Assembly (NCBI GenBank): GCA_050260055.1
Contig: JBLNBO010000046.1
Span: forward strand, 1,962-65,961
Length of the DNA: 64,000 nucleotides
Source of the DNA: Ignavibacteriales bacterium
GTDB taxonomy: Bacteria; Bacillota; Clostridia; Acetivibrionales; UBA4821
Reading direction: 5' to 3'
Numbering within the stretch: the first letter of the stretch is position 1; each line of letters starts with the position of its first letter. The position numbers were made by a program, and so were the translations under genes. This document shows, in pieces, positions 10,688 to 43,133 of this stretch. Below the pieces are notes generated by a model. That model ran no database searches and had not been told where the DNA came from. It saw only the letters and a list, made by a program, of their open reading frames with translations.

Positions 10688-11494
10688 TTATTTTTTCTCC
10701 TTTCTTGAAACAAACAGCGTTCCTATCTCGTCTCCGTCAATTATTCTTCTGATTACAAAAGGATCTGCCCCATTAGCAATAACCATATTGGTTCCTGCTT
10801 TAGCCGCAATTTTTGCAGCAGCTATTTTTGTAAGCATTCCCCCGGTCCCACGTGTTGTTCCTTTTTCACCCGCAGCCTTTTCAATAACCTCATCAATAAC
10901 TTCAACAAATGGTATAAGCTTTGCATTTTCATTTTCTCTAGGGTTTTTGTCGTACAACCCCTCTATATCTGAAAGTATTATTAAAAGTTCTGCACCTATA
11001 AGCTCTGATACAATGGCCGAAAGAGTATCATTGTCTCCAAACTCAATTTCTTCTGTAGCAATAGAATCATTCTCATTTACTATTGGAATCGCATTATAGT
11101 TCAATAATGTATCGAAGGTATTAATTACATTTCTCTTCCTTTTGCTGTCGCTAACATCTTCACGGGTTAAAAGGATTTGCCCAGTATGATAACCAAATTC
11201 TGCAAAAAGCTTATCATAAATATGCATAAGCTCGCACTGACCTATTGCAGCACTCGCCTGCTTTTCACTCATCTTTTCAGGCTTCTTTTTTAATCCAAGC
11301 TTTACACTTCCTACACCAATAGCTCCTGATGTAACTAGAATCACTCTCTTCCCTTGATTCTTCAAATCGGATATTACTAAAGCCAATTTTTCAAGAATGC
11401 CAAGGTTTAGCCTTCCGGTATCATATGTAATTGATGAGGTTCCAACTTTAATTACTATTGTTTCAGCTTTACTCAGAACTTTCCGATAATCCAT
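10688..11494 (-). CDS. proB: Glutamate 5-kinase (short form without PUA domain)
   Basis: 268 aa. IVIKVGTSSIT, ILVTSGAIG, ENDSIATEEIEFGDNDTLSA, GTGGMLTKIAAA. Confidence 0.95.
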   Translation of the reverse strand: MDYRKVLSKAETIVIKVGTSSITYDTGRLNLGILEKLALVISDLKNQGKRVILVTSGAIGVGSVKLGLKKKPEKMSEKQASAAIGQCELMHIYDKLFAEFGYHTGQILLTREDVSDSKRKRNVINTFDTLLNYNAIPIVNENDSIATEEIEFGDNDTLSAIVSELIGAELLIILSDIEGLYDKNPRENENAKLIPFVEVIDEVIEKAAGEKGTTRGTGGMLTKIAAAKIAAKAGTNMVIANGADPFVIRRIIDGDEIGTLFVSRKEKK

Positions 11495-13691
11495 AATCCT
11501 CAGATTTTAATCCTTCCATTCGATTTTTTTCATCTAGATATTCCTGTACTGCCCTTTCAATATCCTGTTTATTTATTAGCATTAATTTTTCCTTGGAATA
11601 ATCATTCTGATGGTTAGCAAGCCTGCTGGTTTGTTTTTTTACCGCTTTTTCAAAGATTTTTTTTGCCTCTCTGCCAAACTCAAAATCTGGATATGAATCT
11701 ACCAAATGCATGAAAGCTTTTTTCAGAACCTGCCTTGATTCATGGTTAAGCTGATATCTTTTTCCACAAAAATTCATTTCAAAAATCTTAATAAGTTCCT
11801 CAGGTCTTGAGTTCTCAAAGAAAATATAATTTGTAAATAATGATTCAAAATCCTCTCCTGTTGATTTTATTGCTTGGATTATCCCCTCAGGATAACCTGT
11901 CAAAGCACATGCAAACCTATCATTATGATTCTGTAGTGCACAAGCTATAAGCTTAACTACTTCTACCCCATATGCTTCTTCATTAAGAATCTTTTCAAAA
12001 CTTTTTATTAAAAGGAGCCCGCCGCTTTGCACCGCATCATTAATAACTTTTGTTGTTTTTCCTTCTGTTTCTTCAACACTTCTTCCAATCAACTCAGCTT
12101 TTCCAGCTTGGTGTATCTCATTATTTTTAATGACATCAAGCCCAAATAAGATTTTCGCAAGTATCCCAGCAAATGTGGTCTTTCCAGTACCAGGCCTTCC
12201 AACAAGAACAAAATTGCTGTTGATTCTTACTGGTGAAAGTCCTACATTTCTAGCATATCTATCAATTCTATGCTTATCAACGAATTCTTTTATTTCACTT
12301 TTTACACTATTTAAGCCTACTATATTCTCAAGTTCTCCCATTCCTTCAGCGAAAACTTCCTGTCTTGATTTAACTATAGGAATATTATATATACCTATTT
12401 CACTTTCACGCTTAATTTGTCCGTAGAATCCACTTTGCCTTTGATGTTCCACTTGGGGCCTTTGCTTATTTTGAGGAGCATCATATTCCTGAAATTCTTT
12501 TACGTCTTTTATTGTCTGCTCTTTTTTAACCACTTCAAGTTTATATATCTCGATTATTCCGGTCATTCTCTCAATGTCGTGCATATAGTCTCTTTCAATA
12601 CTAGTTTCTATTCTTTCTGGCATAATTTTATCGAATGTATCTTTGATTCTATTCATAAAATCGTTATAACAATGAAGTACTTTATCAAGAACGGTTATCT
12701 CTTTATGAATGGTGTTTACATCTAATGACTTTACTCTTTGTTCCCTAAATCTATTCAAGATATTATCAACTTCAGTAAATAACTCAAGTTCATACCGGTT
12801 AAGGTAAGGAGTGGTTGGATAAATAAAATTTTGTCCATTCAATGCAATTCCAACTTTACACTTGCGGGCAAAATCAGTTGTATTGGTAATATGATTATCC
12901 AGTCCTTTTATATACACAACAGGCACGCCGGCGTTAAACTCATATACAGGAAGTTTAATCCCTTCTGTCAATGTTACATATCCCTTAGCAAAATCTCCAG
13001 TATCTAAAACTACCTCTTCTCGTTGTTTCTCTTGTTTTAGTTTCTCTTCTGAGTACTCAGTAATTGTCTTATTAATATGTGATTCACATAATTCACATTT
13101 TATTTGATTATAGAATTGGTCTATATCATCTTTAATACTCTTACGTGTAGCTTCATCTTTGATTTTTACGCAGCTTGCTACAAATTCGCTTTTGAATTTC
13201 ATTACTGCATATTTTTTGGCAAACATGGCTAGTCCAGCAGGATTTTGACTACAGTTAACAAGATAATAATATCGGTTCCTAATAACCATATATACACCAA
13301 AGAAAAAAAATGGAGTAATTATTAGTGAATATTTTAAAGCTTCAAAAAAATCTATTTGAGAAATCTGTTGACAGTATACATATCCAACAGTAAGAACTAT
13401 TGCAACCGTCAGCTTTTCCTGAATATTCTTGTATGATGTAAAAAAAGCATATATTCCACAGATTATGGTATAAACTCCAAACAGCTCAACCATAATACTC
13501 GGTATATTATGCTCAAATAATTTTAGGATGAAATATAAATAAATTGGAATAGAAAACAATATTATTGATGCATAGCTTTTAAGCTCATCATTTGTGATGC
13601 AGTACTCATCAGAAAATCTTTCAAAATTTTTCATAATGAATTTAATGTTGTAATTATTAAATAGTTTTTTCAGCACTGCCACCACCTGCAA
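11469..13691 (-). CDS. Membrane-anchored SpoVK/CbbX-like AAA+ protein with a degenerate Walker B
   Basis: 740 aa. About 4 N-terminal TM helices, then about 300 aa of unknown domain. The C-terminal AAA module has Walker A GRPGTGKTT (nt 12174-12200), but GGLLLIKSFEK stands where GGVLFIDEAY is expected. The start (TTG at 13691 or ATG at 13634) is uncertain. Confidence 0.7.
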   Translation of the reverse strand: MQVVAVLKKLFNNYNIKFIMKNFERFSDEYCITNDELKSYASIILFSIPIYLYFILKLFEHNIPSIMVELFGVYTIICGIYAFFTSYKNIQEKLTVAIVLTVGYVYCQQISQIDFFEALKYSLIITPFFFFGVYMVIRNRYYYLVNCSQNPAGLAMFAKKYAVMKFKSEFVASCVKIKDEATRKSIKDDIDQFYNQIKCELCESHINKTITEYSEEKLKQEKQREEVVLDTGDFAKGYVTLTEGIKLPVYEFNAGVPVVYIKGLDNHITNTTDFARKCKVGIALNGQNFIYPTTPYLNRYELELFTEVDNILNRFREQRVKSLDVNTIHKEITVLDKVLHCYNDFMNRIKDTFDKIMPERIETSIERDYMHDIERMTGIIEIYKLEVVKKEQTIKDVKEFQEYDAPQNKQRPQVEHQRQSGFYGQIKRESEIGIYNIPIVKSRQEVFAEGMGELENIVGLNSVKSEIKEFVDKHRIDRYARNVGLSPVRINSNFVLVGRPGTGKTTFAGILAKILFGLDVIKNNEIHQAGKAELIGRSVEETEGKTTKVINDAVQSGGLLLIKSFEKILNEEAYGVEVVKLIACALQNHNDRFACALTGYPEGIIQAIKSTGEDFESLFTNYIFFENSRPEELIKIFEMNFCGKRYQLNHESRQVLKKAFMHLVDSYPDFEFGREAKKIFEKAVKKQTSRLANHQNDYSKEKLMLINKQDIERAVQEYLDEKNRMEGLKSEDYGLSESSE

Positions 13692-13826
13692 ATATAGGAT
13701 AATTATTCAATACTATAATCGGTAATATATATTATATCAAAATAATATCTAATGTCCAATTTAAGAATTAATTAGATTCAAATTTAATAATTAACAGCAT
13801 AAATCAGCTTTATTTCCACAAAATAT

Positions 13827-14048
13827 AAAGAGGATTCTTAAATTTAGCTGAATGTTTTTTTTAGCTAAATGCTAGAAGCCCTTATCCATGTGACGTACTA
13901 CCGCTTTCGAAAGATTAGCGGTAGTAGGAATCGGGTAAAGAGGATTCTTACATTTAGATAAATGATTTTTTTTATCTAAATGTTAGAAGCCCTTATCCAC
14001 GTGATGTACCGACGCTTTCTAAAGTATTAGCGTCGGTCAGAGTCGGGT
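13827..14048 (+). repeat. Tandem duplication of a 110/112-nt unit, each unit predicted to fold into two hairpins
   Basis: Unit 1 is 13827-13936 and unit 2 is 13937-14048. By-eye alignment shows most positions identical. Differences inside both stems are compensatory. Confidence 0.85.
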
Positions 14049-14159
14049 AAATGGTTAATTGTAATTTTGAGTCGTTAAACCTTTTAAAAAACCGGAATCA
14101 TGCAGTAATCTCCCCAAATATGTATGATTTCAATATATCAATGTAAAGGAGTGATTCGT

Positions 14160-14339
14160 ATGAAAACTCGTGAAGGAACAACCGCTACAATCGTTGGAAT
14201 AATTGTTGTCCTCGTAGGTTATGCCCTTTTTAGCTCTACTCCTATATGGGGTGCTGGAATTATCGGATTTGGTCTTGCACATGTAGTACTTGGAGTAATT
14301 GATTTAATGCAAAATAGTAATAGAAGAGTTAGAGACTAA
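14160..14339 (+). CDS. Small two-TM membrane protein (59 aa)
   Basis: AAGGAG Shine-Dalgarno 8 nt before the ATG at 14160. Two hydrophobic helices. Followed by a strong terminator. Confidence 0.55.
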   Translation: MKTREGTTATIVGIIVVLVGYALFSSTPIWGAGIIGFGLAHVVLGVIDLMQNSNRRVRD

Positions 14340-14343
14340 TAAT

Positions 14344-14368
14344 AAGGGGTCTATCCCCTTATTTTTTT
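14344..14368 (+). terminator. Rho-independent terminator
   Basis: AAGGGG tctat CCCCTT followed by ATTTTTTT. Confidence 0.8.
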
Positions 14369-14398
14369 GCATCAAATTTTATATGAAAGGATGAATAA

Positions 14399-15304
14399 AT
14401 TATAAATATTGGATATGCATGTCTTAATATAACATTAAAAACTGTATTCAGGGATTTAACCCTCAAAACATTAGAAAAGTTAAATACCCATCAAAAAATT
14501 GAAAAATTAAATTCAATAGCTTTAATTAATACAAATCAAATTGAACAAATTTTAGAATTTAATCACAATAATAATATTGGTCTATATAGAATGCCAACAA
14601 ATATTCTTCCCTTTCCTACACATCCTTCTGCGAAAGAATGGAATTGGAGAGAAATATTGCTTCCGTGCTTTCAACATATTGGTAAGCTGTCAAAAGAGTA
14701 TAACATACAGCTTTCTTTTCATGCTGATGAATATACTATTATCAATAGTATAAATGATATTGTATTAAACAATTCATTCAATACACTGCTTTATCTCTCA
14801 GATGTATTGGACTCTATGAATGTAGAATCTAAAATTATAATACATATCGGTGGAGTGTATGGAGATAAAATTGCTTCTAAAAAAAGGTTTGTTAAGAATT
14901 TTAGTAAACTTCCTATTGCTGTCAGAAAAAAGTTGGTACTGGAAAATGATGATAAGCAATACGATTGGAAAGATGTTTTAGATATTTCAAAAGAAGTTCA
15001 AGCTCCTATGGTTTTAGACATTCATCATTACAAGATAAATAATAACCATGGACCTATTACTTCTAAAGATATAAACGAAATTTTCTCAACATGGAAGGGC
15101 ATCACACCAAAAATTCATCTTTCCAGTCCTGAAAATACTAAAGATTTAAAACCGCATGCCGATTATATTAATGTAGAAGATTTTTTATGGTTTTATAATA
15201 CCGTAAAAGATTTCGATTATAATATAATGCTTGAGGCAAAAGCTAAAGAGCTTGCAGTATTAAAGTTTAGAGACGATTTAAAAATTCTAGGAATAAACAT
15301 CTAA
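14399..15304 (+). CDS. uvsE: UV damage endonuclease UvsE/UVDE, with no canonical start codon at the full-length N-terminus
   Basis: The frame is open from 14399 and encodes (I)INIGYACLNITLK...GLYRMPTNILPFPTHP...IIIHIGGVYGDK...VLENDD, which is typical UvsE. The first ATG in frame is at 14591, which would remove about 64 conserved residues. Confidence 0.75.
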   Translation: MINIGYACLNITLKTVFRDLTLKTLEKLNTHQKIEKLNSIALINTNQIEQILEFNHNNNIGLYRMPTNILPFPTHPSAKEWNWREILLPCFQHIGKLSKEYNIQLSFHADEYTIINSINDIVLNNSFNTLLYLSDVLDSMNVESKIIIHIGGVYGDKIASKKRFVKNFSKLPIAVRKKLVLENDDKQYDWKDVLDISKEVQAPMVLDIHHYKINNNHGPITSKDINEIFSTWKGITPKIHLSSPENTKDLKPHADYINVEDFLWFYNTVKDFDYNIMLEAKAKELAVLKFRDDLKILGINI

Positions 15305-16137: not shown

Positions 16138-17787
16138 TTATTGAACCTTTTCTTGTTCGAACATGAGGTTGTCAAAGCTTTCTATACTGGCAGTATTGTT
16201 TTTACCGTCATTGTACTTAACATCTACGGTATCACCAACTGCAGTAATAGGAATTTCCGGTGAAAGTCCCGCAGAGGCAGTGAATATTTTGTTGTCTACT
16301 CCCTCAATTATAAGGTAGTAATAACTTTCGCCGCCTACTATCTTCAGCCCGATCCTCTTGACTTTTCCTTGATACTGATACTTATAGGAAACCTTTTCGA
16401 AGGTTGCTTTGTTTCCTGTTTCGCTAAGGGCGTTCATATAAGCAAGCTTAGCCTCTTCGATTTGCTTCCCTACTCCTACCAGCCGGTAATCCTTGATGTT
16501 TACGAAGGCATACATCTTTACTACCCCTCCGTTATCCTTCAAGGTCATAAAGTAACTGGGCTCGCCGTTTACATTTACCGGCAGGGGAAAAGCCGCTGTG
16601 TATTCAAAGTCTTGGACTGCACCTTCAGCTGTCTGCTGAGCAGCCTGCTCATGAGCACCACTCATCTTATAGAAGAAGGTCTTTTTTGTACGGGTATCAC
16701 ACATTAAAAATCCAACCGTAGAGTCATCATTTCCCGCAGATGTCATTCCGGTAAAGAAGTAACACCGGCCTTTTGAGAATACAATTGCAGTTCCCGATGT
16801 AGGTGTGATTTTGTCCTTATCGCTCCAGTTCCAATATCCATGGACATATTCGCCGTAGTTATAAGATTGGTTATCGAATATCCACATCGGCTGGATTCGG
16901 TCAATCCATGCAGGTGCTTTATCAATGCTGTAATGCTTAATCTCGCCTGTCGTTGCATTAACCACGATTATACCTATCGCTTCTTGACCTCCCCAACCGA
17001 TCTGGTTTTCATATTCAGTCACACAGTAATATGGATATCCCTGGTCATCCAATTCAAAAGAATAATCGGTAAGTCCAGCTTTCATAAATCCGTGTGTCCT
17101 GATATGCCGTTCAAGGTCTTCATCAAAGAATGCACATGGCTGATACTTGATTGGAATTTTCTTGCCGTCGATATCGGTTACCAGTTTAACATCCTCAGGA
17201 TTTCTGGCAGATACCATGACATATCCCGGAGTGCCTCCCGGACTGGCCTTATACTTCCAAAAACCGGAGTGTTCCAGCGGGGCAACAAGCACAAGCTTCC
17301 CGTTTACGTTTTGGGTTGTGAATTCACCGATTTCCACCTGACTTCCCAGGGCAGTAATTTGGCCAAGTGTTTTTTTGCAAAGACTGGGCGCCCAATCCGG
17401 GTCCACAATCGGAATCTGATTTGCATCAAACAGTTCAAAATCTTTGGTATATTCAGCTTTTACCGGTGTTCCCAACTGCGCCTGGTATTTTTCAGCATTA
17501 AACATGTCCCAGCAAGAAACCCATTTGGCTCCAAAACCCAGAATCAAAACTACTGTTACAATCAGCGCCGGTACAAAAAGATCGCCGTCAGATATTTCGT
17601 CATATACATCGCTGAATGTGAAACACAGTGTCCACCCCATGGTTAGAATCACCAGCAGCAGCATGAATGTAGCACCCATGAAATTTAACGTTATCGGAAT
17701 ACATGCAGCCCAATACCAAAACCAGAAAAACAATGCCTCCAGCACTAAAAGGATAACCCCACCAATTCTAAAGTTTCTCATCGACAT
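16138..17787 (-). CDS. Hypothetical membrane-anchored protein with a large extracytoplasmic domain
   Basis: 549 aa. 3-4 N-terminal TM helices followed by about 430 aa of soluble Trp/Tyr/Gly-rich domain. No family recognised. The gene looks more GC-rich than its neighbours. Confidence 0.6.
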   Translation of the reverse strand: MSMRNFRIGGVILLVLEALFFWFWYWAACIPITLNFMGATFMLLLVILTMGWTLCFTFSDVYDEISDGDLFVPALIVTVVLILGFGAKWVSCWDMFNAEKYQAQLGTPVKAEYTKDFELFDANQIPIVDPDWAPSLCKKTLGQITALGSQVEIGEFTTQNVNGKLVLVAPLEHSGFWKYKASPGGTPGYVMVSARNPEDVKLVTDIDGKKIPIKYQPCAFFDEDLERHIRTHGFMKAGLTDYSFELDDQGYPYYCVTEYENQIGWGGQEAIGIIVVNATTGEIKHYSIDKAPAWIDRIQPMWIFDNQSYNYGEYVHGYWNWSDKDKITPTSGTAIVFSKGRCYFFTGMTSAGNDDSTVGFLMCDTRTKKTFFYKMSGAHEQAAQQTAEGAVQDFEYTAAFPLPVNVNGEPSYFMTLKDNGGVVKMYAFVNIKDYRLVGVGKQIEEAKLAYMNALSETGNKATFEKVSYKYQYQGKVKRIGLKIVGGESYYYLIIEGVDNKIFTASAGLSPEIPITAVGDTVDVKYNDGKNNTASIESFDNLMFEQEKVQ

Positions 17788-18223: not shown

Positions 18224-18628
18224 ATGCTTAAGAAACTAGTTGTGGGTGGAATAATCTCAATGTTTATGATGGTAACAGCAATTCCTAGCTTTGCAGCTAC
18301 AAGCTGCCCTTATTCAACAAATACTGCAAACGCTAGCCAGATTGCAAAAAGCTGCAATAATAACACGCAGTTGGCAAGCTTGCTAAAACAGCTTAAAGCA
18401 GGAAAATGCAGTAATAACAAAAACATTCAGGCACTACTCAATAAGCTGAATGCCTGTAAATCCACAAATTCAGTAAAGAGCTGTTCAACAGCAAATAACT
18501 GTGCGACAATCCGTTGTTCAAACGGCAAATGTTACACAATTAATTGTTCAACCGGCAGCTGCTTAACAAATTCATGCCCGGCAAACAGCTTGTTAAAAGG
18601 TTTATGCCAAACAGGAAGCTGTAGATAA
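18224..18628 (+). CDS. Secreted cysteine-rich small protein (signal peptide plus 110-aa mature part with 13 Cys)
   Basis: Signal peptide ending IPSFA-ATS. The mature part is rich in Asn, Ser, Thr and Cys, with repeated C-x4-6-C spacing. GGAAGGAGG Shine-Dalgarno. Confidence 0.7.
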   Translation: MLKKLVVGGIISMFMMVTAIPSFAATSCPYSTNTANASQIAKSCNNNTQLASLLKQLKAGKCSNNKNIQALLNKLNACKSTNSVKSCSTANNCATIRCSNGKCYTINCSTGSCLTNSCPANSLLKGLCQTGSCR

Positions 18629-41039: not shown

Positions 41040-42860
41040 TTATTCTACAGTTACGCTCTTTGCCAAGTTTCTCGGCTTATCTACGTCACAGCCCTTCTGA
41101 ACTGCTACATAATAAGCAAATAACTGCAGCGGTATTACCGTCAGAATCGAACTTAATACATCCTCAATCTTTGGAATATATAATACAAAGTCTGCAACCT
41201 TCTCAATCTCAGTATTTCCTTCCTGTGCAACCGCAAGCACAACAGCTCCCCTTGCCTTAACTTCCTTGATATTGCTCAACATTTTATCAAAAAGCTCTTC
41301 CTGCGTTGCAAGTGCAACAACCAGCGTTCCCTTTTCAATCAATGCAATTGTGCCGTGCTTTAATTCACCTGCAGCATAAGCTTCTGAATGGATATATGAT
41401 ATTTCCTTCAGCTTGAGCGAACCTTCAAGTGCAACAGTATAGTCCAATCCTCTACCCAGGAAGAATATATCCTTGGCATTATAGTGATTTGCAGCAAAGT
41501 ATTGAATTTTTTCCCTATGTTCAAGTACTTCCGCAACTTTATCAGGAAGCATCTTAAGATGCTCAAATATATCATTTGCCTGTTCATTGGTTATGGTACC
41601 CTTTTTAAGAGCAAAATCAACTGCTAAAAGATACATTGCTGCAAGCTGAGTCGTATATGCCTTTGTAGAAGCAACTGCAATCTCCGGCCCAGCCCATGTA
41701 TAAAGCACATTGTCTGACTCTCTTGCTATGGAGCTTCCAACAACATTCACAACCGAAATTACCTTTGTCCCATGCTTTTTGGCTTCTCTTAGAGCTGCCA
41801 GCGTATCCGCGGTTTCACCTGACTGGCTGATTATGATTACAAGCATTTTTTCATTCAGAACCGGATTACGGTATCTGAATTCTGAAGCAATATCAACCTC
41901 TACAGGAATTCTGGAAAGCTTTTCAATAAGATACTTTCCAACCATACCTGCATGATAAGCTGTTCCGCAGGCAACTATAAATATCTTTTCAATCCCTTCA
42001 AGCTCTTTAGAGCTTAATTCAAATTCAAACTCCGGTTTACCGTTTTTGATTCTTGGATTGATTGTATCTTTTATTACTTTCGGCTGTTCAAATATCTCCT
42101 TTAACATAAAGTGCTCATATCCGCCTTTTTCAGCAGAAGATACGTCCCATTCAACCTTATAGATTTCTTTTCTAACTTCTTCTCCATCTTTATTAAATAT
42201 TTTAACACCATCTTTTCTGAGCACAACTAATTCGTTATCATCGAGGAGATAAATATTTCTTGTGTGCTCCAAAATTGCAGGTATATCTGATGCAATAAAG
42301 TTCTCTCCTTCTCCAACTCCAACAATAAGCGGGCTGTCTTTTCTTACAGCAATAAACTGTTCGGGATGCTCTTGAGATAAAATACCTAATGCATACGAAC
42401 CTTCAAGCTTGGTCAAAGCCTTTCTAACCGCCTCAACAAGATTCCCTTCATAATAATACTCTATAAGATGTGCAATTATTTCTGTATCAGTTTCTGAAAG
42501 AAACTCAACGCCCTTGGATTGAAGAAACTCTTTAAGCCTTAGATAATTCTCGATTATTCCATTGTGAACAACCGCAATATGTCCTTTGAAACTGATATGC
42601 GGATGAGAATTCACATCAGATGGTTCTCCATGAGTTGCCCATCTGGTGTGGCCTATTCCAACCAAACTGGATACTTTCTCATCTGCAAGCTTTTCTTCAA
42701 GCATACTGAGCCTTCCCTTGCATTTAAGTATATCCAACTCTTTATTATTAATTATTGCTATTCCTGATGAATCATACCCTCTGTATTCAAGCTTCTTTAA
42801 CCCTTCTATCAGTACGGGAACTGAGTTTTTGTTCCCTATATAACCAACTATTCCACACAT
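41040..42860 (-). CDS. glmS: Glutamine--fructose-6-phosphate aminotransferase (isomerizing)
   Basis: Begins MCGIVGYIG (catalytic Cys2) after a GGGAGG Shine-Dalgarno. Two SIS domains. Ends NLAKSVTVE. Confidence 0.97.
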   Translation of the reverse strand: MCGIVGYIGNKNSVPVLIEGLKKLEYRGYDSSGIAIINNKELDILKCKGRLSMLEEKLADEKVSSLVGIGHTRWATHGEPSDVNSHPHISFKGHIAVVHNGIIENYLRLKEFLQSKGVEFLSETDTEIIAHLIEYYYEGNLVEAVRKALTKLEGSYALGILSQEHPEQFIAVRKDSPLIVGVGEGENFIASDIPAILEHTRNIYLLDDNELVVLRKDGVKIFNKDGEEVRKEIYKVEWDVSSAEKGGYEHFMLKEIFEQPKVIKDTINPRIKNGKPEFEFELSSKELEGIEKIFIVACGTAYHAGMVGKYLIEKLSRIPVEVDIASEFRYRNPVLNEKMLVIIISQSGETADTLAALREAKKHGTKVISVVNVVGSSIARESDNVLYTWAGPEIAVASTKAYTTQLAAMYLLAVDFALKKGTITNEQANDIFEHLKMLPDKVAEVLEHREKIQYFAANHYNAKDIFFLGRGLDYTVALEGSLKLKEISYIHSEAYAAGELKHGTIALIEKGTLVVALATQEELFDKMLSNIKEVKARGAVVLAVAQEGNTEIEKVADFVLYIPKIEDVLSSILTVIPLQLFAYYVAVQKGCDVDKPRNLAKSVTVE

Positions 42861-42884
42861 AATCGAAACCTCCCTTATCACAAT

Positions 42885-43078
42885 TTTTAAACAAAAAAAC
42901 CATAGGCAAAAAAACCTATAGTTTCTGTCCAATCTTGTACACTTGATTGTTTCTGTTCCCCGGTCGCCCGGGTATTTGTTCAATCAATTACGAACGTACC
43001 ATCCGTGAGGTCATCCGCCGAATTTTCGATAAACCCCACCCTCGTCATCTGACTTTCGTCAGTGCTGGCGCTCAATTA
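42885..43078 (-). ncRNA. glmS ribozyme: glmS ribozyme (GlcN6P-dependent self-cleaving riboswitch)
   Basis: Minus strand reads AGCGCCAGCACUGACGAAAGUCAGAUGACGAGGGUGGGGUUUAUCGAAAAUUCGGCGGAUGACCUCACGG...CCCGGGCGACCGGGGAAC. This matches the conserved core as I recall it, and it sits directly 5' of glmS. Confidence 0.9.
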
Positions 43079-43133
43079 AGTTTTTAACAAATCTTATCTT
43101 CTAACCTATACGCATCTCTCCTTTCATATACCC

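What the first reader, a model, noticed from the sequence alone, without database searches (positions are those of the whole stretch)
13827..14048. Tandem pair of 110/112-nt structured units with compensatory base changes in both hairpins
Two head-to-tail units (13827-13936 and 13937-14048) lie in the 430-bp gap between the AAA+ gene and a 59-aa two-TM protein gene.
- Conserved 5' block: AAAGAGGATTCTTA.
- Long AU-rich hairpin: TTTAGCT..AGCTAAA in unit 1 versus TTTAGAT..ATCTAAA in unit 2, so C-G becomes A-T. The extended stem is TTCTTAMATTTAG / CTAAATGYTAGAA.
- Conserved single-stranded block: GAAGCCCTTATCCAYGTGAYGTAC.
- GC-rich hairpin, 9-10 bp: TACTACCGCT/AGCGGTAGTA (13896-13905 and 13917-13926) in unit 1 versus ACCGACGCT/AGCGTCGGT (14008-14016 and 14029-14037) in unit 2. 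Three consecutive base pairs are replaced compensatorily.
- Closing segment: GAATC or GAGTC, able to pair with GATTC in the 5' block, followed by GGGTAA.
Covariation between the copies argues for selection on the fold, either as RNA or as a DNA cruciform, rather than a recent inert duplication. It matches no riboswitch, T-box, terminator or CRISPR consensus I know.
Basis: seen in the sequence. Interest (0 to 1): 0.7.

Follow-up and report, generated by a model that had tools for sequence, protein, structure and literature searches.

The report
Small structured mobile repeat, tandem pair
The two 110-base folded units are real, but they are two copies of a small, previously uncatalogued mobile repeat that landed at the start of a sporulation-gene transcript, and not a regulator made for that gene.

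Summary
Two head-to-tail units lie at 13827-14048 (in my phase 13830-13939 and 13940-14051). They differ at 17 substitutions and 2 indels, and both hairpins keep pairing through compensatory changes.

Structure is conserved, but the unit is an insertion and not a gene-specific regulatory RNA.
- At least seven clearly distinct related lineages keep the same promoter and small gene with no unit.
- A near-identical strain has only unit 1.
- One other lineage has one full and one truncated unit at the same spot.
- Related units sit at two unrelated sites, one of which has an empty orthologue.

Every copy follows (A/G)TA(A/T)A and ends in a similar pentamer, usually ATAAA or GTAAA. There are no terminal inverted repeats and no Rfam match.

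The fold is two adjacent hairpin domains. Seven pairs carry double changes; no shuffle of 500 reached that.

In the window the pair starts 4 nt after the -10 box of a conserved sigma-G-type forespore promoter. It is therefore probably transcribed as the 5' leader.

The closest analogue is the bcr1 group of Bacillus cereus repeats, followed by REP and IS200/IS605-derived elements. The mobilising enzyme is unknown.

Verdict: new member of a known kind, of moderate interest.

The parts
13797..13825 (+). Forespore-type (sigma-G/F-like) promoter of the small gene: GCATA, 17-nt spacer, CAAAATA
   Evidence: The motif GHATR-N17-18-CAHWHTA is found upstream of the small gene in 10 of 14 loci, i.e. in 7 of 8 distinct lineages. 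It matches only 6 times in both strands of the window. The consensus itself is recalled from the B. subtilis literature and was not tested here.
13825..13829 (+). ATAAA pentamer on the 5' flank of unit 1 (insertion target, or the left copy of the direct repeat)
   Evidence: The empty sites L003 and L004 read CAAAATATAAA|TG. The filled sites carry the units right after this pentamer.
13830..13939 (+). Unit 1 (110 nt), ending in GTAAA. Hairpin domain 1 is at 13831-13881. TTATCC at 13882-13887 pairs with GGGTAA at 13933-13938. The GC hairpin is at 13896-13926.
   Evidence: The covariance model R1 scores it at 117 bits. Unit 1 alone is present in strain L002.
13940..14051 (+). Unit 2 (112 nt), ending in GTAAA. 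Hairpin domain 1 is at 13941-13992. TTATCC is at 13993-13998. The GC hairpin is at 14008-14037. GGGTAA is at 14045-14050.
   Evidence: R1 scores it at 115 bits. It is absent from L002, which otherwise differs by 3 SNPs in 4.2 kb.
14052..14159 (+). Original leader of the small gene, with the ribosome-binding site AAAGGAG at 14146-14152
   Evidence: The start of this leader (TGGTTAATTG) corresponds to TGATTAATTA, which directly follows the promoter in the empty site L004.
14160..14339 (+). Gene for a 59-aa protein with two predicted membrane helices, followed by a terminator-like hairpin at 14341-14363
   Evidence: No Pfam family matches. Homologues lie upstream of uvdE in most relatives.
14400..15304 (+). 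uvdE (UV-damage endonuclease). It is intact, and the reading frame is open from about 14400 with a non-ATG start.
   Evidence: Pfam PF03851, E = 1e-51. The N-terminal translation matches the relatives.
11469..13634 (-). Divergent gene for a membrane-anchored AAA+ protein (AAA plus AAA_lid_6). Its promoter-like site at 13758-13731 lies between the gene and the units.
   Evidence: The gene calls give 721 aa.

Best explanation
Each unit is a copy of a small (110-128 nt) non-autonomous mobile element from a family that is not in Rfam.

**Anatomy.** The element folds on one strand into two adjacent hairpin domains:
- an AT-rich hairpin closed by GGG:CCC;
- a GC-rich hairpin closed by UUAUCC:GGRUAA.

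It has no terminal inverted repeats. It is always found directly after an (A/G)TA(A/T)A pentamer, usually ATAAA, which reads TTTAT on the other strand. It ends in a similar pentamer (GTAAA, GTATA, ATAAA or ACAAA), so it is bracketed by a 4-5 nt direct repeat.

**In this genome.** Two diverged copies lie head to tail 4 nt downstream of the -10 box of a sigma-G-type forespore promoter. They are therefore probably transcribed as the first 222 nt of the mRNA for a small membrane protein, which may read through into uvdE.

**How it works (inferred).** The compensatory changes reflect constraint on the hairpins as recognition structures for whatever moves or maintains the element. They do not reflect ligand sensing for this gene. 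I infer mobilisation in trans by an enzyme encoded elsewhere. Two candidates:
- A single-strand HUH/Y1 transposase of the IS200/IS605-REP type. The internal TTAT in front of the second hairpin would then act as the guide for the ATAA cleavage and target site.
- Site-specific recombination across the pentamer core, as proposed for the bcr1 repeats. This would also explain tandem copies and precise gain or loss of one unit.

**Shown:** insertion and absence polymorphism, target pentamer, fold, covariation.
**Inferred:** transcription, the mobilising enzyme, and any effect on the host gene.
For: **Presence and absence at exact boundaries**
- The window and L001 have two units. L002 has only unit 1, with 0 mismatches in 2768 nt upstream and 3 in 1429 nt downstream.
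- The longest run shared by the units is 16 nt, so an assembly collapse at k=31 is unlikely (the k value is from my knowledge of Logan assemblies).
- At least seven clearly distinct related lineages keep the promoter, leader and gene with no unit.

**Copies in unrelated contexts**
- L012 (Peptococcaceae UBA5318): between GAPDH and an Orn/Lys/Arg decarboxylase gene.
- L013, L044, L045: directly after the stop codon of a type IV coupling-protein-like gene.
- The orthologous site in L046 is empty, with a 15-nt gap.

**Target pentamer**
- All three sites have TAAA or ATAAA on the 5' flank. The element ends in GTAAA (window), GTATA (L008), ATAAA (L012, L044) or ACAAA (L013).

**Recent spread or strong constraint**
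- The unit is 109/110 identical between L013 and L044, while the flanking coding DNA is 85-95% identical.

**Fold and covariation**
- Two-hairpin consensus, 33 pairs, 93.9% of cells paired.
- Seven pairs have double changes against 2.9 in shuffles, reached by 0 of 500 shuffles. Slid controls give 0-1.
- Independent minimum-energy folds of the L008 and L012 units give the same architecture.

**Other**
- No Rfam family matches.
- The literature analogue is bcr1: about 155 bp, 5-bp direct repeats, two stem-loops kept by compensatory changes, strain-variable distribution (PMC3184786), and a TTTAT motif (PMC6542083).
- In IS608 the cleavage sites are read by guide sequences 5' of the hairpin foot (PMC3201880).
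Against: - Copy number is low. There is one locus in the 64-kb window. Exact-block scans found one hit among 185,579 species genomes and two metagenome contigs. Typical MITE or REP families have tens to hundreds of copies.
- No transposase or recombinase gene was found in the window or next to any copy.
- No autonomous parent element was found.
- The two hairpins are unlike each other, whereas IS200/IS605 ends carry similar hairpins.
- Orientation relative to GC skew is not consistent. The structured strand is on the C-rich strand in the window and L008, and on the G-rich strand in L012 and L013/L044. In contrast, orientation is sense to the downstream gene at all three sites.
- The structured strand always folds better than its complement.
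- The unit evolves more slowly than the neighbouring coding DNA.
- The last three points would also fit a host-selected RNA function.
- L012 and L013 were found with a pattern containing the conserved blocks, so their conservation of those blocks is partly by construction.
Confidence: 0.6

Rival explanations
1. The unit is a host-selected structured RNA module, for example an mRNA-stabilising or processing element, a protein-binding leader, or an undiscovered self-cleaving RNA. It works in the sense strand of transcripts. It has been copied to a few loci, and mobility is secondary.
For: - Orientation is sense to the downstream gene at all three sites.
- It lies inside probable transcripts: 4 nt after a conserved sigma-G-type -10 box, and between two cistrons.
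- The structured strand is 3.6-11.8 kcal/mol more stable than its complement in all five units.
- Junction sequences are invariant while stems covary.
- The unit is more conserved than flanking genes: 109/110 against 85-95%.
- Copy number is low.
Against: - It is dispensable in at least seven clearly distinct related lineages at the leader site and in L046 at the other site.
- The second copies are decaying in L008 and in L013/L044.
- One unit is gained or lost between near-identical strains.
- The downstream genes share no function.
- There is no terminator or ribosome-binding-site-sequestering platform.
- Three sites are too few to show orientation bias.
Confidence: 0.22
2. The pair is a tandem riboswitch or other ligand- or signal-sensing leader dedicated to the 59-aa membrane protein gene.
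For: - It lies in the 5' leader, in sense orientation.
- It is a tandem arrangement like glycine riboswitches.
- It has conserved junction blocks and covarying stems.
Against: - No Rfam match even at permissive thresholds.
- Absent from the orthologous leader in at least seven related lineages that keep the promoter and gene.
- The number of units varies (0, 1, 2, or 1 plus a fragment).
- The same unit occurs at unrelated genes.
- No expression platform was detected.
Confidence: 0.05
3. It is a classical DDE-transposase MITE that makes a 4-5 bp target-site duplication of an AT-rich target. This is a specific variant of the mobile-element reading.
For: - TAAA or ATAAA is present on both sides at each site, while the empty site has one copy.
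- In L008 both the flank and the junction read TATA.
- Size and intergenic location are typical (PMC10969869, PMC3184786).
Against: - There are no terminal inverted repeats. The 5' end is GRGGATTC and the reverse complement of the 3' end is YCCGAT..., which share only GAT.
- The 3' pentamer is predicted to pair with the internal TTATCC, which suggests it belongs to the element.
- The matching TATA in L008 can also arise from local tandem duplication.
Confidence: 0.1
4. It is an inert local tandem duplication of ordinary intergenic DNA with no constraint on structure.
For: The head-to-tail arrangement, and the unit-sized indel between strains, could arise by slippage.
Against: - 8 of the 17 substitutions between the copies fall in four fully compensatory pairs, and three more create or improve pairs.
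- The unit has relatives at unrelated loci that keep the fold.
- The sequence is absent from orthologous intergenic regions.
Confidence: 0.02

Closest known systems
bcr1 (group A repeats bcr1-bcr3) of the Bacillus cereus group
   Same: - A small non-coding repeat in a Firmicute.
- Flanked by a 5-bp direct repeat. For bcr1 this is TTTAT, the reverse complement of the ATAAA seen here.
- A cruciform-like fold with two independent stem-loops kept by compensatory changes.
- Distribution differs between closely related strains.
- No transposase of its own, and an unknown mobilisation mechanism thought to resemble site-specific recombination (PMC3184786, PMC6542083).
   Different: - bcr1 is about 155 bp, has 11-130 copies per genome and is reported as restricted to the B. 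cereus group.
- This element is 110-128 nt, was seen at one to two loci per organism, and occurs in anaerobic Peptococcaceae-like spore formers.
- No sequence similarity was detected: blastn against plasmids, some of which carry bcr1, found nothing. The bcr1 consensus itself could not be obtained for a direct test.
IS200/IS605-derived non-autonomous elements and REP/BIME sequences (HUH Y1 transposases TnpA and TnpA-REP)
   Same: - No terminal inverted repeats.
- Hairpins near both ends.
- Insertion right after a fixed tetra- or pentanucleotide.
- The element's own 3' end resembles the target.
- A short sequence 5' of the hairpin foot (here TTAT) is complementary to the cleavage or target site (ATAA), like the guide sequences of IS608 (PMC3201880).
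- Precise gain and loss.
   Different: - The two hairpins here differ in sequence and length, whereas IS608 ends carry similar imperfect palindromes.
- There is no consistent orientation with respect to the replication strand, although IS608 and ISDra2 target the lagging-strand template (PMC6006769).
- No tnpA, tnpB or RAYT gene was found nearby.
- REPs are about 35 nt and highly repeated.
BOX elements of Streptococcus pneumoniae
   Same: Intergenic, transcribed, strongly folded modular repeats with tandem internal modules. They can alter expression of neighbouring genes (PMC3184786, PMC10969869).
   Different: BOX is built from boxA, boxB and boxC modules, is present in over 100 copies, and has inverted-repeat-like ends. 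There is no sequence relationship.
Tandem riboswitches (for example glycine)
   Same: Two similar structured domains head to tail in a 5' leader.
   Different: There is no conserved gene association, no expression platform and no Rfam match. The number of units varies between strains, and the units are absent from most orthologous leaders.

Membership tests
Any curated RNA family (Rfam 15), including riboswitches, T-box, ribozymes, IS605-orfB RNAs | Score at or above the family's gathering threshold | tested here: not met
   The only gathering-level hit in the window is glmS at 42933-43083. In 13650-14400 the best hits are miRNA hairpin models with E = 0.65-7, and IS605-orfB-II at 15 bits against a threshold of 88. 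Nothing matches at the units of L008, L012 or L013.
Gene-specific cis-regulatory leader or riboswitch | Conserved association with the regulated gene across orthologues | tested here: not met
   The units are absent upstream of the small gene in L003, L004/L006, L011, L037/L042, L038, L043 and L049. They are present only in the window lineage and the L008 lineage.
Gene-specific cis-regulatory leader or riboswitch | Expression platform (terminator/antiterminator, or sequestering of the ribosome-binding site) | tested here: not met
   No terminator-like site lies between 14051 and 14160. In the fold of 13800-14170, the ribosome-binding-site region does not pair with the units.
Classical MITE (DDE transposase-derived) | Terminal inverted repeats | tested here: not met
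   The 5' end is GRGGATTC and the reverse complement of the 3' end is YCCGAT. Only GAT is shared across the family.
Classical MITE (DDE transposase-derived) | Target-site duplication | tested here: inconclusive
   A 4-5 nt TAAA or ATAAA repeat sits on both sides, and the empty site has one copy. The 3' copy may instead belong to the element, since it pairs with TTATCC.
Classical MITE (DDE transposase-derived) | Many dispersed copies per genome | tested here: inconclusive
   One locus in the 64-kb window. Three insertion sites in all across the collections. Whole genomes were not available.
IS200/IS605-type or REP-type single-strand element | Subterminal hairpins, no inverted terminal repeats, insertion 3' of a fixed tetra- or pentanucleotide | tested here: met
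   Hairpin domains begin 1-2 nt from the 5' end and end 1-13 nt from the 3' end. The 5' flank is (A/G)TA(A/T)A at all sites.
IS200/IS605-type or REP-type single-strand element | Similar hairpins at both ends, bound by one TnpA | tested here: not met
   Hairpin 1 is AT-rich with about 17 pairs. Hairpin 2 is GC-rich with 10-13 pairs. They share no motif beyond TTAGC.
IS200/IS605-type or REP-type single-strand element | Active strand on the lagging-strand template | tested here: inconclusive
   GC skew of the strand carrying the structured unit is -0.13 in the window and -0.11 in L008. It is positive in L012, L013 and L044. Only three sites are available, and skew is a proxy.
IS200/IS605-type or REP-type single-strand element | A Y1 HUH transposase (TnpA or RAYT) encoded in the genome | not testable with these tools
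   None was found among 48 window proteins or the neighbours of the other copies. The rest of the genome is not held.
bcr1-type (group A) repeats | 5-bp TTTAT direct repeats on both flanks, and strain-variable insertion | tested here: met
   ATAAA (TTTAT on the other strand) is on both sides in L012 and L044. The window has ATAAA and GTAAA. Presence and absence between strains and species. The definition is from PMC3184786 and PMC6542083.
bcr1-type (group A) repeats | Two-stem-loop fold kept by compensatory changes | tested here: met
bcr1-type (group A) repeats | Sequence homology to the bcr1-3 consensus | not tested
   The consensus is not available (PMC524882 is not held). As an indirect test, blastn of the units against 72,556 plasmids gave no match.
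Type III toxin-antitoxin antitoxin repeats | Short tandem RNA repeats followed by a terminator and a ToxN/AbiE-like endoribonuclease gene | tested here: not met
   The downstream gene encodes a 59-aa membrane protein with no Pfam match. No terminator lies between the repeats and the gene. The repeats are absent in orthologues.
Integron attC site | RYYYAAC and GTTRRRY core sites at the two ends of a single imperfect hairpin | tested here: not met
   The ends read GRGGATTC and TCGGRTAAA. The fold is two hairpins, not one.

The most novel reading that the evidence does not exclude
The unit belongs to a wider, still unexplained class of two-hairpin elements that target TTTAT/ATAAA, to which bcr1 of Bacillus cereus would also belong. 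This class would be spread among distant spore-forming Firmicutes and moved by an enzyme or RNA-level mechanism not yet identified. Alternatively, the unit is a new functional RNA, such as a processing or self-cleaving element, that rides in sense orientation inside transcripts. The second reading would explain its higher conservation than the neighbouring genes and its sense orientation at all three sites.
Probability: 0.25. Interest if true: 0.6.

Novelty: new member of a known kind. Interest (0 to 1): 0.35.

Why it matters
- It shows that a pattern which looks like a new tandem riboswitch (covarying stems, conserved junctions, 5' leader position) can be produced by a small mobile repeat. 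This is a useful caution for RNA-motif discovery.
- The family is not in Rfam. It adds a second, phylogenetically distant example of the poorly understood bcr1 style of element: a 5-nt AT-rich direct repeat, two hairpins and no inverted repeats.
- The two-unit and one-unit alleles in near-identical strains, and the filled and empty sites, give a concrete handle for finding what mobilises such elements.
- For the host, the insertion puts 222 nt of stable structure at the 5' end of a probable forespore transcript. This could change mRNA stability or translation, and that is testable.

Tried and rejected
- **Rfam.** Searches at gathering and permissive thresholds on the window region and on three loci with relatives found nothing relevant.
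- **First genome scan.** The exact 23-nt block GAAGCCCTTATCCANGTGANGTA gave 0 hits. A gapped pattern built from the blocks shared with L008 was needed.
- **Viral contigs.** The 16-mer TAGAAGCCCTTATCCA gave 22 hits, all chance matches without a unit. The gapped pattern gave 0.
- **BLAST.** blastn against plasmids and phages found no match.
- **Full-text search** for the conserved block returned only unrelated primer sequences.
- **A peptide-coding reading.** There is a 30-aa ORF at 13869-13961. It was rejected because its start codon is not kept in L008, and L012 differs at the corresponding position.
- **A replication-orientation test** for the IS200/IS605 idea gave mixed signs.
- **Transposase search** by Pfam over 48 window proteins and the neighbours of other copies found none.
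- **Direct comparison with bcr1** was not possible because the original bcr1 paper is not held.
- **uvdE.** I suspected that uvdE was truncated (237 aa against about 290). It is intact with a non-ATG start.
Full report
**1. The observation**

- Tandem Repeats Finder reports 13826-14032 with period 111 and 1.9 copies.
- Aligned, the two units differ at 17 positions plus two 1-nt indels in 112 columns.
- The hairpin arms are at the stated coordinates. The GC hairpin carries three consecutive compensatory pair replacements, and the AT-rich hairpin carries one.
- In all, 8 substitutions fall in four fully compensatory pairs. Two more (columns 15 and 47) create two extra pairs in unit 2, and one turns G·U into A-U.
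- Each unit folds much better than shuffled controls: -39.3 and -41.7 kcal/mol, z = -5.7 and -7.8.
- The 24-nt central block occurs only twice in the window, with none expected by chance.

Minor corrections:
- The intergenic gap is 468-525 bp depending on the start chosen for the AAA+ gene.
- I phase the units as 13830-13939 and 13940-14051, for reasons given in section 3.

**2. No known RNA family**

- Rfam 15 at gathering thresholds finds only a glmS ribozyme far away.
- A permissive scan of 13650-14400 gives only weak hairpin-type hits, and an IS605-orfB-II hit at 15 bits against a threshold of 88.
- Relatives of the unit in other loci also match nothing.

**3. Relatives show that the units are an insertion**

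I collected homologues of the downstream 59-aa protein and fetched their contigs.

The window and its near relative:
- L001 is identical to the window over 6180 nt.
- L002 comes from a sister sample. It has 0 mismatches in 2768 nt upstream and 3 in 1429 nt downstream, but carries only unit 1. The missing segment is exactly unit 2.
- The units share no exact run longer than 16 nt. A k-mer collapse is therefore unlikely, and the three SNPs show that L002 is a separate haplotype.

Empty leader sites:
- L003, L004 and L006 have the same gene order and small-protein identity of about 80-83%. There the promoter is followed directly by the leader: CACAAAATATAAA|TGATTAATT.
- The window reads CACAAAATATAAA[GAGGATTC…CGGGTAAA][GAGGATTC…CGGGTAAA]TGGTTAATTG.
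- L011, L037, L038, L042, L043 and L049 also lack the unit. The covariance model finds nothing there.

The one other filled leader site:
- L007, L008, L009, L010 and L014 form a single lineage with an insert at the same spot. It has one full unit with a larger loop in the GC hairpin.
- Its second unit has about 60 extra nt in hairpin 1 and is cut off after GAAGCCCTTATC. Part of the leader is also deleted.

By UvdE identity, the window, L003, L004 and L008 are roughly equidistant at 68-72%. The two filled lineages are therefore not obviously sisters.

**4. The same element at unrelated sites**

A gapped pattern built from the blocks shared by the window and L008 found one genome hit and two metagenome contigs.
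- **L012** (Peptococcaceae bacterium UBA5318). A 128-nt unit lies between a divergent GAPDH gene and an Orn/Lys/Arg decarboxylase gene. It is in sense orientation to the decarboxylase gene.
- **L013.** A 110-nt unit starts at the stop codon of a type IV coupling-protein-like gene. It is followed by a 25-nt 5' fragment of a second unit and then the next gene.
- **Orthologues of the L013 site.** Using the protein encoded downstream, I fetched orthologous loci. L044 and L045 have the same unit plus fragment.
- **Empty orthologue.** L046 has only 15 nt between the two genes. L046 is from the same MAG as the empty leader site L004.

The fragment ends in GATGAGG next to a GATGAGG in the flank. This fits a microhomology deletion of a former second unit (inference).

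Three different sites are therefore occupied, and two of them have documented empty orthologues. Three of the four occupied loci show, or once showed, a tandem pair.

**5. Boundaries**

| Site | 5' flank | 3' end of the unit |
|---|---|---|
| Window | ATAAA | GTAAA (both units) |
| L008 | ATATA | GTATA |
| L012 | ATAAA | ATAAA |
| L044 | ATAAA | ATAAA |
| L013 | GTAAA | ACAAA |

- The empty leader site has a single TAAA.
- The element is therefore bracketed by a 4-5 nt direct repeat of an AT-rich pentamer, which reads TTTAT on the other strand.
- The sequence alone cannot say whether the 3' copy is a target-site duplication, a crossover core, or part of the element.
- There are no terminal inverted repeats.

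**6. Structure**

- RNAalifold on five distinct units gives two adjacent domains.
  - Domain 1: GGG…TTCT…ATTTAG-loop-CTAAAT…AGAA…CCC.
  - Domain 2: TTATCC…[GC hairpin]…GGRTAA.
- Counting pairs: 93.9% of cells are paired, and 7 pairs have changes on both sides against 2.9±1.2 in shuffles (0 of 500 shuffles reach 7). Slid controls give 0-1 such pairs.
- Covariation is confined to the upper part of hairpin 1 and to the GC hairpin. The lower helices are invariant and so neither supported nor contradicted.
- Independent folds of the L008 and L012 units recover the same architecture.
- In all five units the given strand is 3.6-11.8 kcal/mol more stable than its complement.
- Caveat: L012 and L013 were found with a pattern that contains GGATTCTTA and TAGAAGCCCTTATC. 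Only the window and L008 are independent witnesses for conservation of those blocks.

**7. Context in the window**

- Immediately upstream lies GCATA-17 nt-CAAAATA (13797-13825). This matches the forespore sigma-G consensus GHATR-N17-18-CAHWHTA, which I recall from B. subtilis work.
- The motif is kept upstream of the small gene in 10 of 14 loci, i.e. in 7 of 8 distinct lineages. It occurs only 6 times in both strands of the window.
- Unit 1 starts 4 nt after the -10 box. A transcript from this promoter would therefore begin at or within a few bases of the unit and carry both units as its leader (inference).
- Downstream are a terminator-like hairpin and an intact uvdE. The B. subtilis homologue of uvdE, ywjD, acts in sporulating cells and spores (PMC4773242).
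- The divergent AAA+ gene has its own promoter-like site between it and the units, so the units are not in its leader.
- No transposase or recombinase is encoded in the window or beside the other copies.

**8. Signs of recent spread or strong constraint**

- Between L013 and L044 the unit is 109/110 identical. It is the most conserved 110-nt stretch in 6 kb.
- Flanking coding DNA is 85-95% identical, and the adjacent fragment is about 83% identical.
- Between the window and L008, the 5' 60 nt of the unit are about 85% identical by my count of the aligned sequences. The UvdE proteins are 72% identical.
- This fits recent re-introduction or homogenisation of a mobile sequence. It also fits purifying selection on the whole unit.

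**9. Mechanism**

What is shown: precise gain and loss, a fixed pentamer at the boundary, a conserved two-hairpin fold, and no inverted terminal repeats.

From this I infer a non-autonomous element moved by an enzyme encoded elsewhere. Two models fit.

Model (a), a single-strand HUH/Y1 mechanism as in IS200/IS605 and REP elements:
- The hairpins would be the binding sites.
- The TTAT just 5' of the second hairpin domain is complementary to the ATAA of the 3' end and of the target. This resembles the guide and cleavage-site logic of IS608 (PMC3201880).
- Against it, the two hairpins are unlike each other.

Model (b), site-specific recombination between a circular form and a TTTAT/ATAAA core, as suggested for bcr1-type repeats (PMC6542083):
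- This would explain direct repeats equal to the target, tandem copies, and clean loss of one unit.

I cannot separate the two models with the data held.

The tandem pair itself may come from a second insertion. It may also come from unequal exchange between the flanking pentamers. In L008 both the flank and the junction read TATA, which fits duplication of pentamer plus unit.

**10. Rivals**

- **Host-selected RNA module.** This remains possible (0.22), given sense orientation at all three sites, strand asymmetry, low copy number and high conservation. Against it are dispensability in most relatives, decay of second copies and unrelated downstream genes.
- **Dedicated riboswitch.** Largely excluded by distribution.
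- **Classical MITE.** Lacks the inverted repeats.
- **Inert duplication.** Excluded by the family members elsewhere.

**11. Comparison with known systems**

- The closest described analogue is bcr1 of the Bacillus cereus group. It is about 155 bp with 5-bp direct repeats, two independent stem-loops kept by compensatory changes, a strain-variable distribution, and it is transcribed (PMC3184786). It carries a TTTAT motif (PMC6542083).
- Our pentamer is the reverse complement of that motif.
- Sequence homology could not be tested because the consensus was not available. blastn against plasmids found nothing.
- I therefore say it works like a bcr1-type element. I do not claim that it is a member of that family.

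**12. Verdict**

The feature is real and the covariation is real. The best reading is a new family of a known kind of small structured mobile repeat, not a novel regulatory RNA. Interest is moderate (0.35). It would rise if a census links it with bcr1 into a wider class and identifies the mobiliser, or if an RNA-level activity is found.

Noticed in passing
window 13797-13825 (+), and the corresponding positions in L003, L004, L006, L008, L011, L037, L042, L043: A sigma-G/F-type forespore promoter motif (GHATR-N17-CAHWHTA, here GCATA…CAAAATA) is conserved upstream of the 59-aa two-helix membrane protein gene, which usually precedes uvdE. This suggests an undescribed small forespore membrane protein.
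   Followed up: partly
window 42933-43083 (-): A glmS ribozyme (91 bits) lies upstream of the glmS-sized ORF at 41040-42983.
   Followed up: no
whole window; label: NCBI labels the source MAG 'Ignavibacteriales bacterium', and a related MAG 'Deltaproteobacteria bacterium'. The window, however, has a glmS ribozyme, a SpoVK-like AAA+ gene, a spore-germination-type permease, a sigma-G-type promoter and 36% GC. A family member of the element lies in a Peptococcaceae MAG. The labels look wrong, and the organism is probably a spore-forming Firmicute.
   Followed up: partly
L013 7779-7861 (+): A NiCo riboswitch (56 bits, E = 1e-10) lies upstream of a cation-efflux (CDF) gene, just downstream of the locus that carries the element.
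   Followed up: no
L013 4961-6829, L044 1978-3846, L046 2117-3985: A 622-aa type IV coupling-protein-like gene (T4SS-DNA_transf, TraG-D_C) is conserved in the same neighbourhood in three related organisms. It lies among small unknown genes, a 242-aa unknown gene, and CDF and MFS transporter genes. No other conjugation genes are in view.
   Followed up: no
L008 2850-2960: The degenerate second unit carries about 60 extra nt inside the loop of hairpin 1 (GTGATTTGGCTTATAATTTCTTGTTATCGTTAGATAACCTAGAAATCATTGCCCACCTTGTGT). Its origin is unknown. It may be a nested insertion or a longer variant of the element.
   Followed up: no
window 14400-14590: The uvdE reading frame is open and homologous to relatives from about 14400, but the first ATG is at 14591. 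The gene probably uses a non-ATG start, and automatic gene calls (237 aa) truncate it.
   Followed up: partly
window 16138-17787 (-) and 18224-18628 (+): A 549-aa ORF and a 134-aa ORF have no Pfam match.
   Followed up: no
window 13883-13992 (-): The covariance model also scores the opposite strand across the junction of the two units (49.5 bits). The reverse complement of GC hairpin plus AT hairpin mimics the order of domains. This symmetry could confuse strand assignment in automated searches.
   Followed up: no
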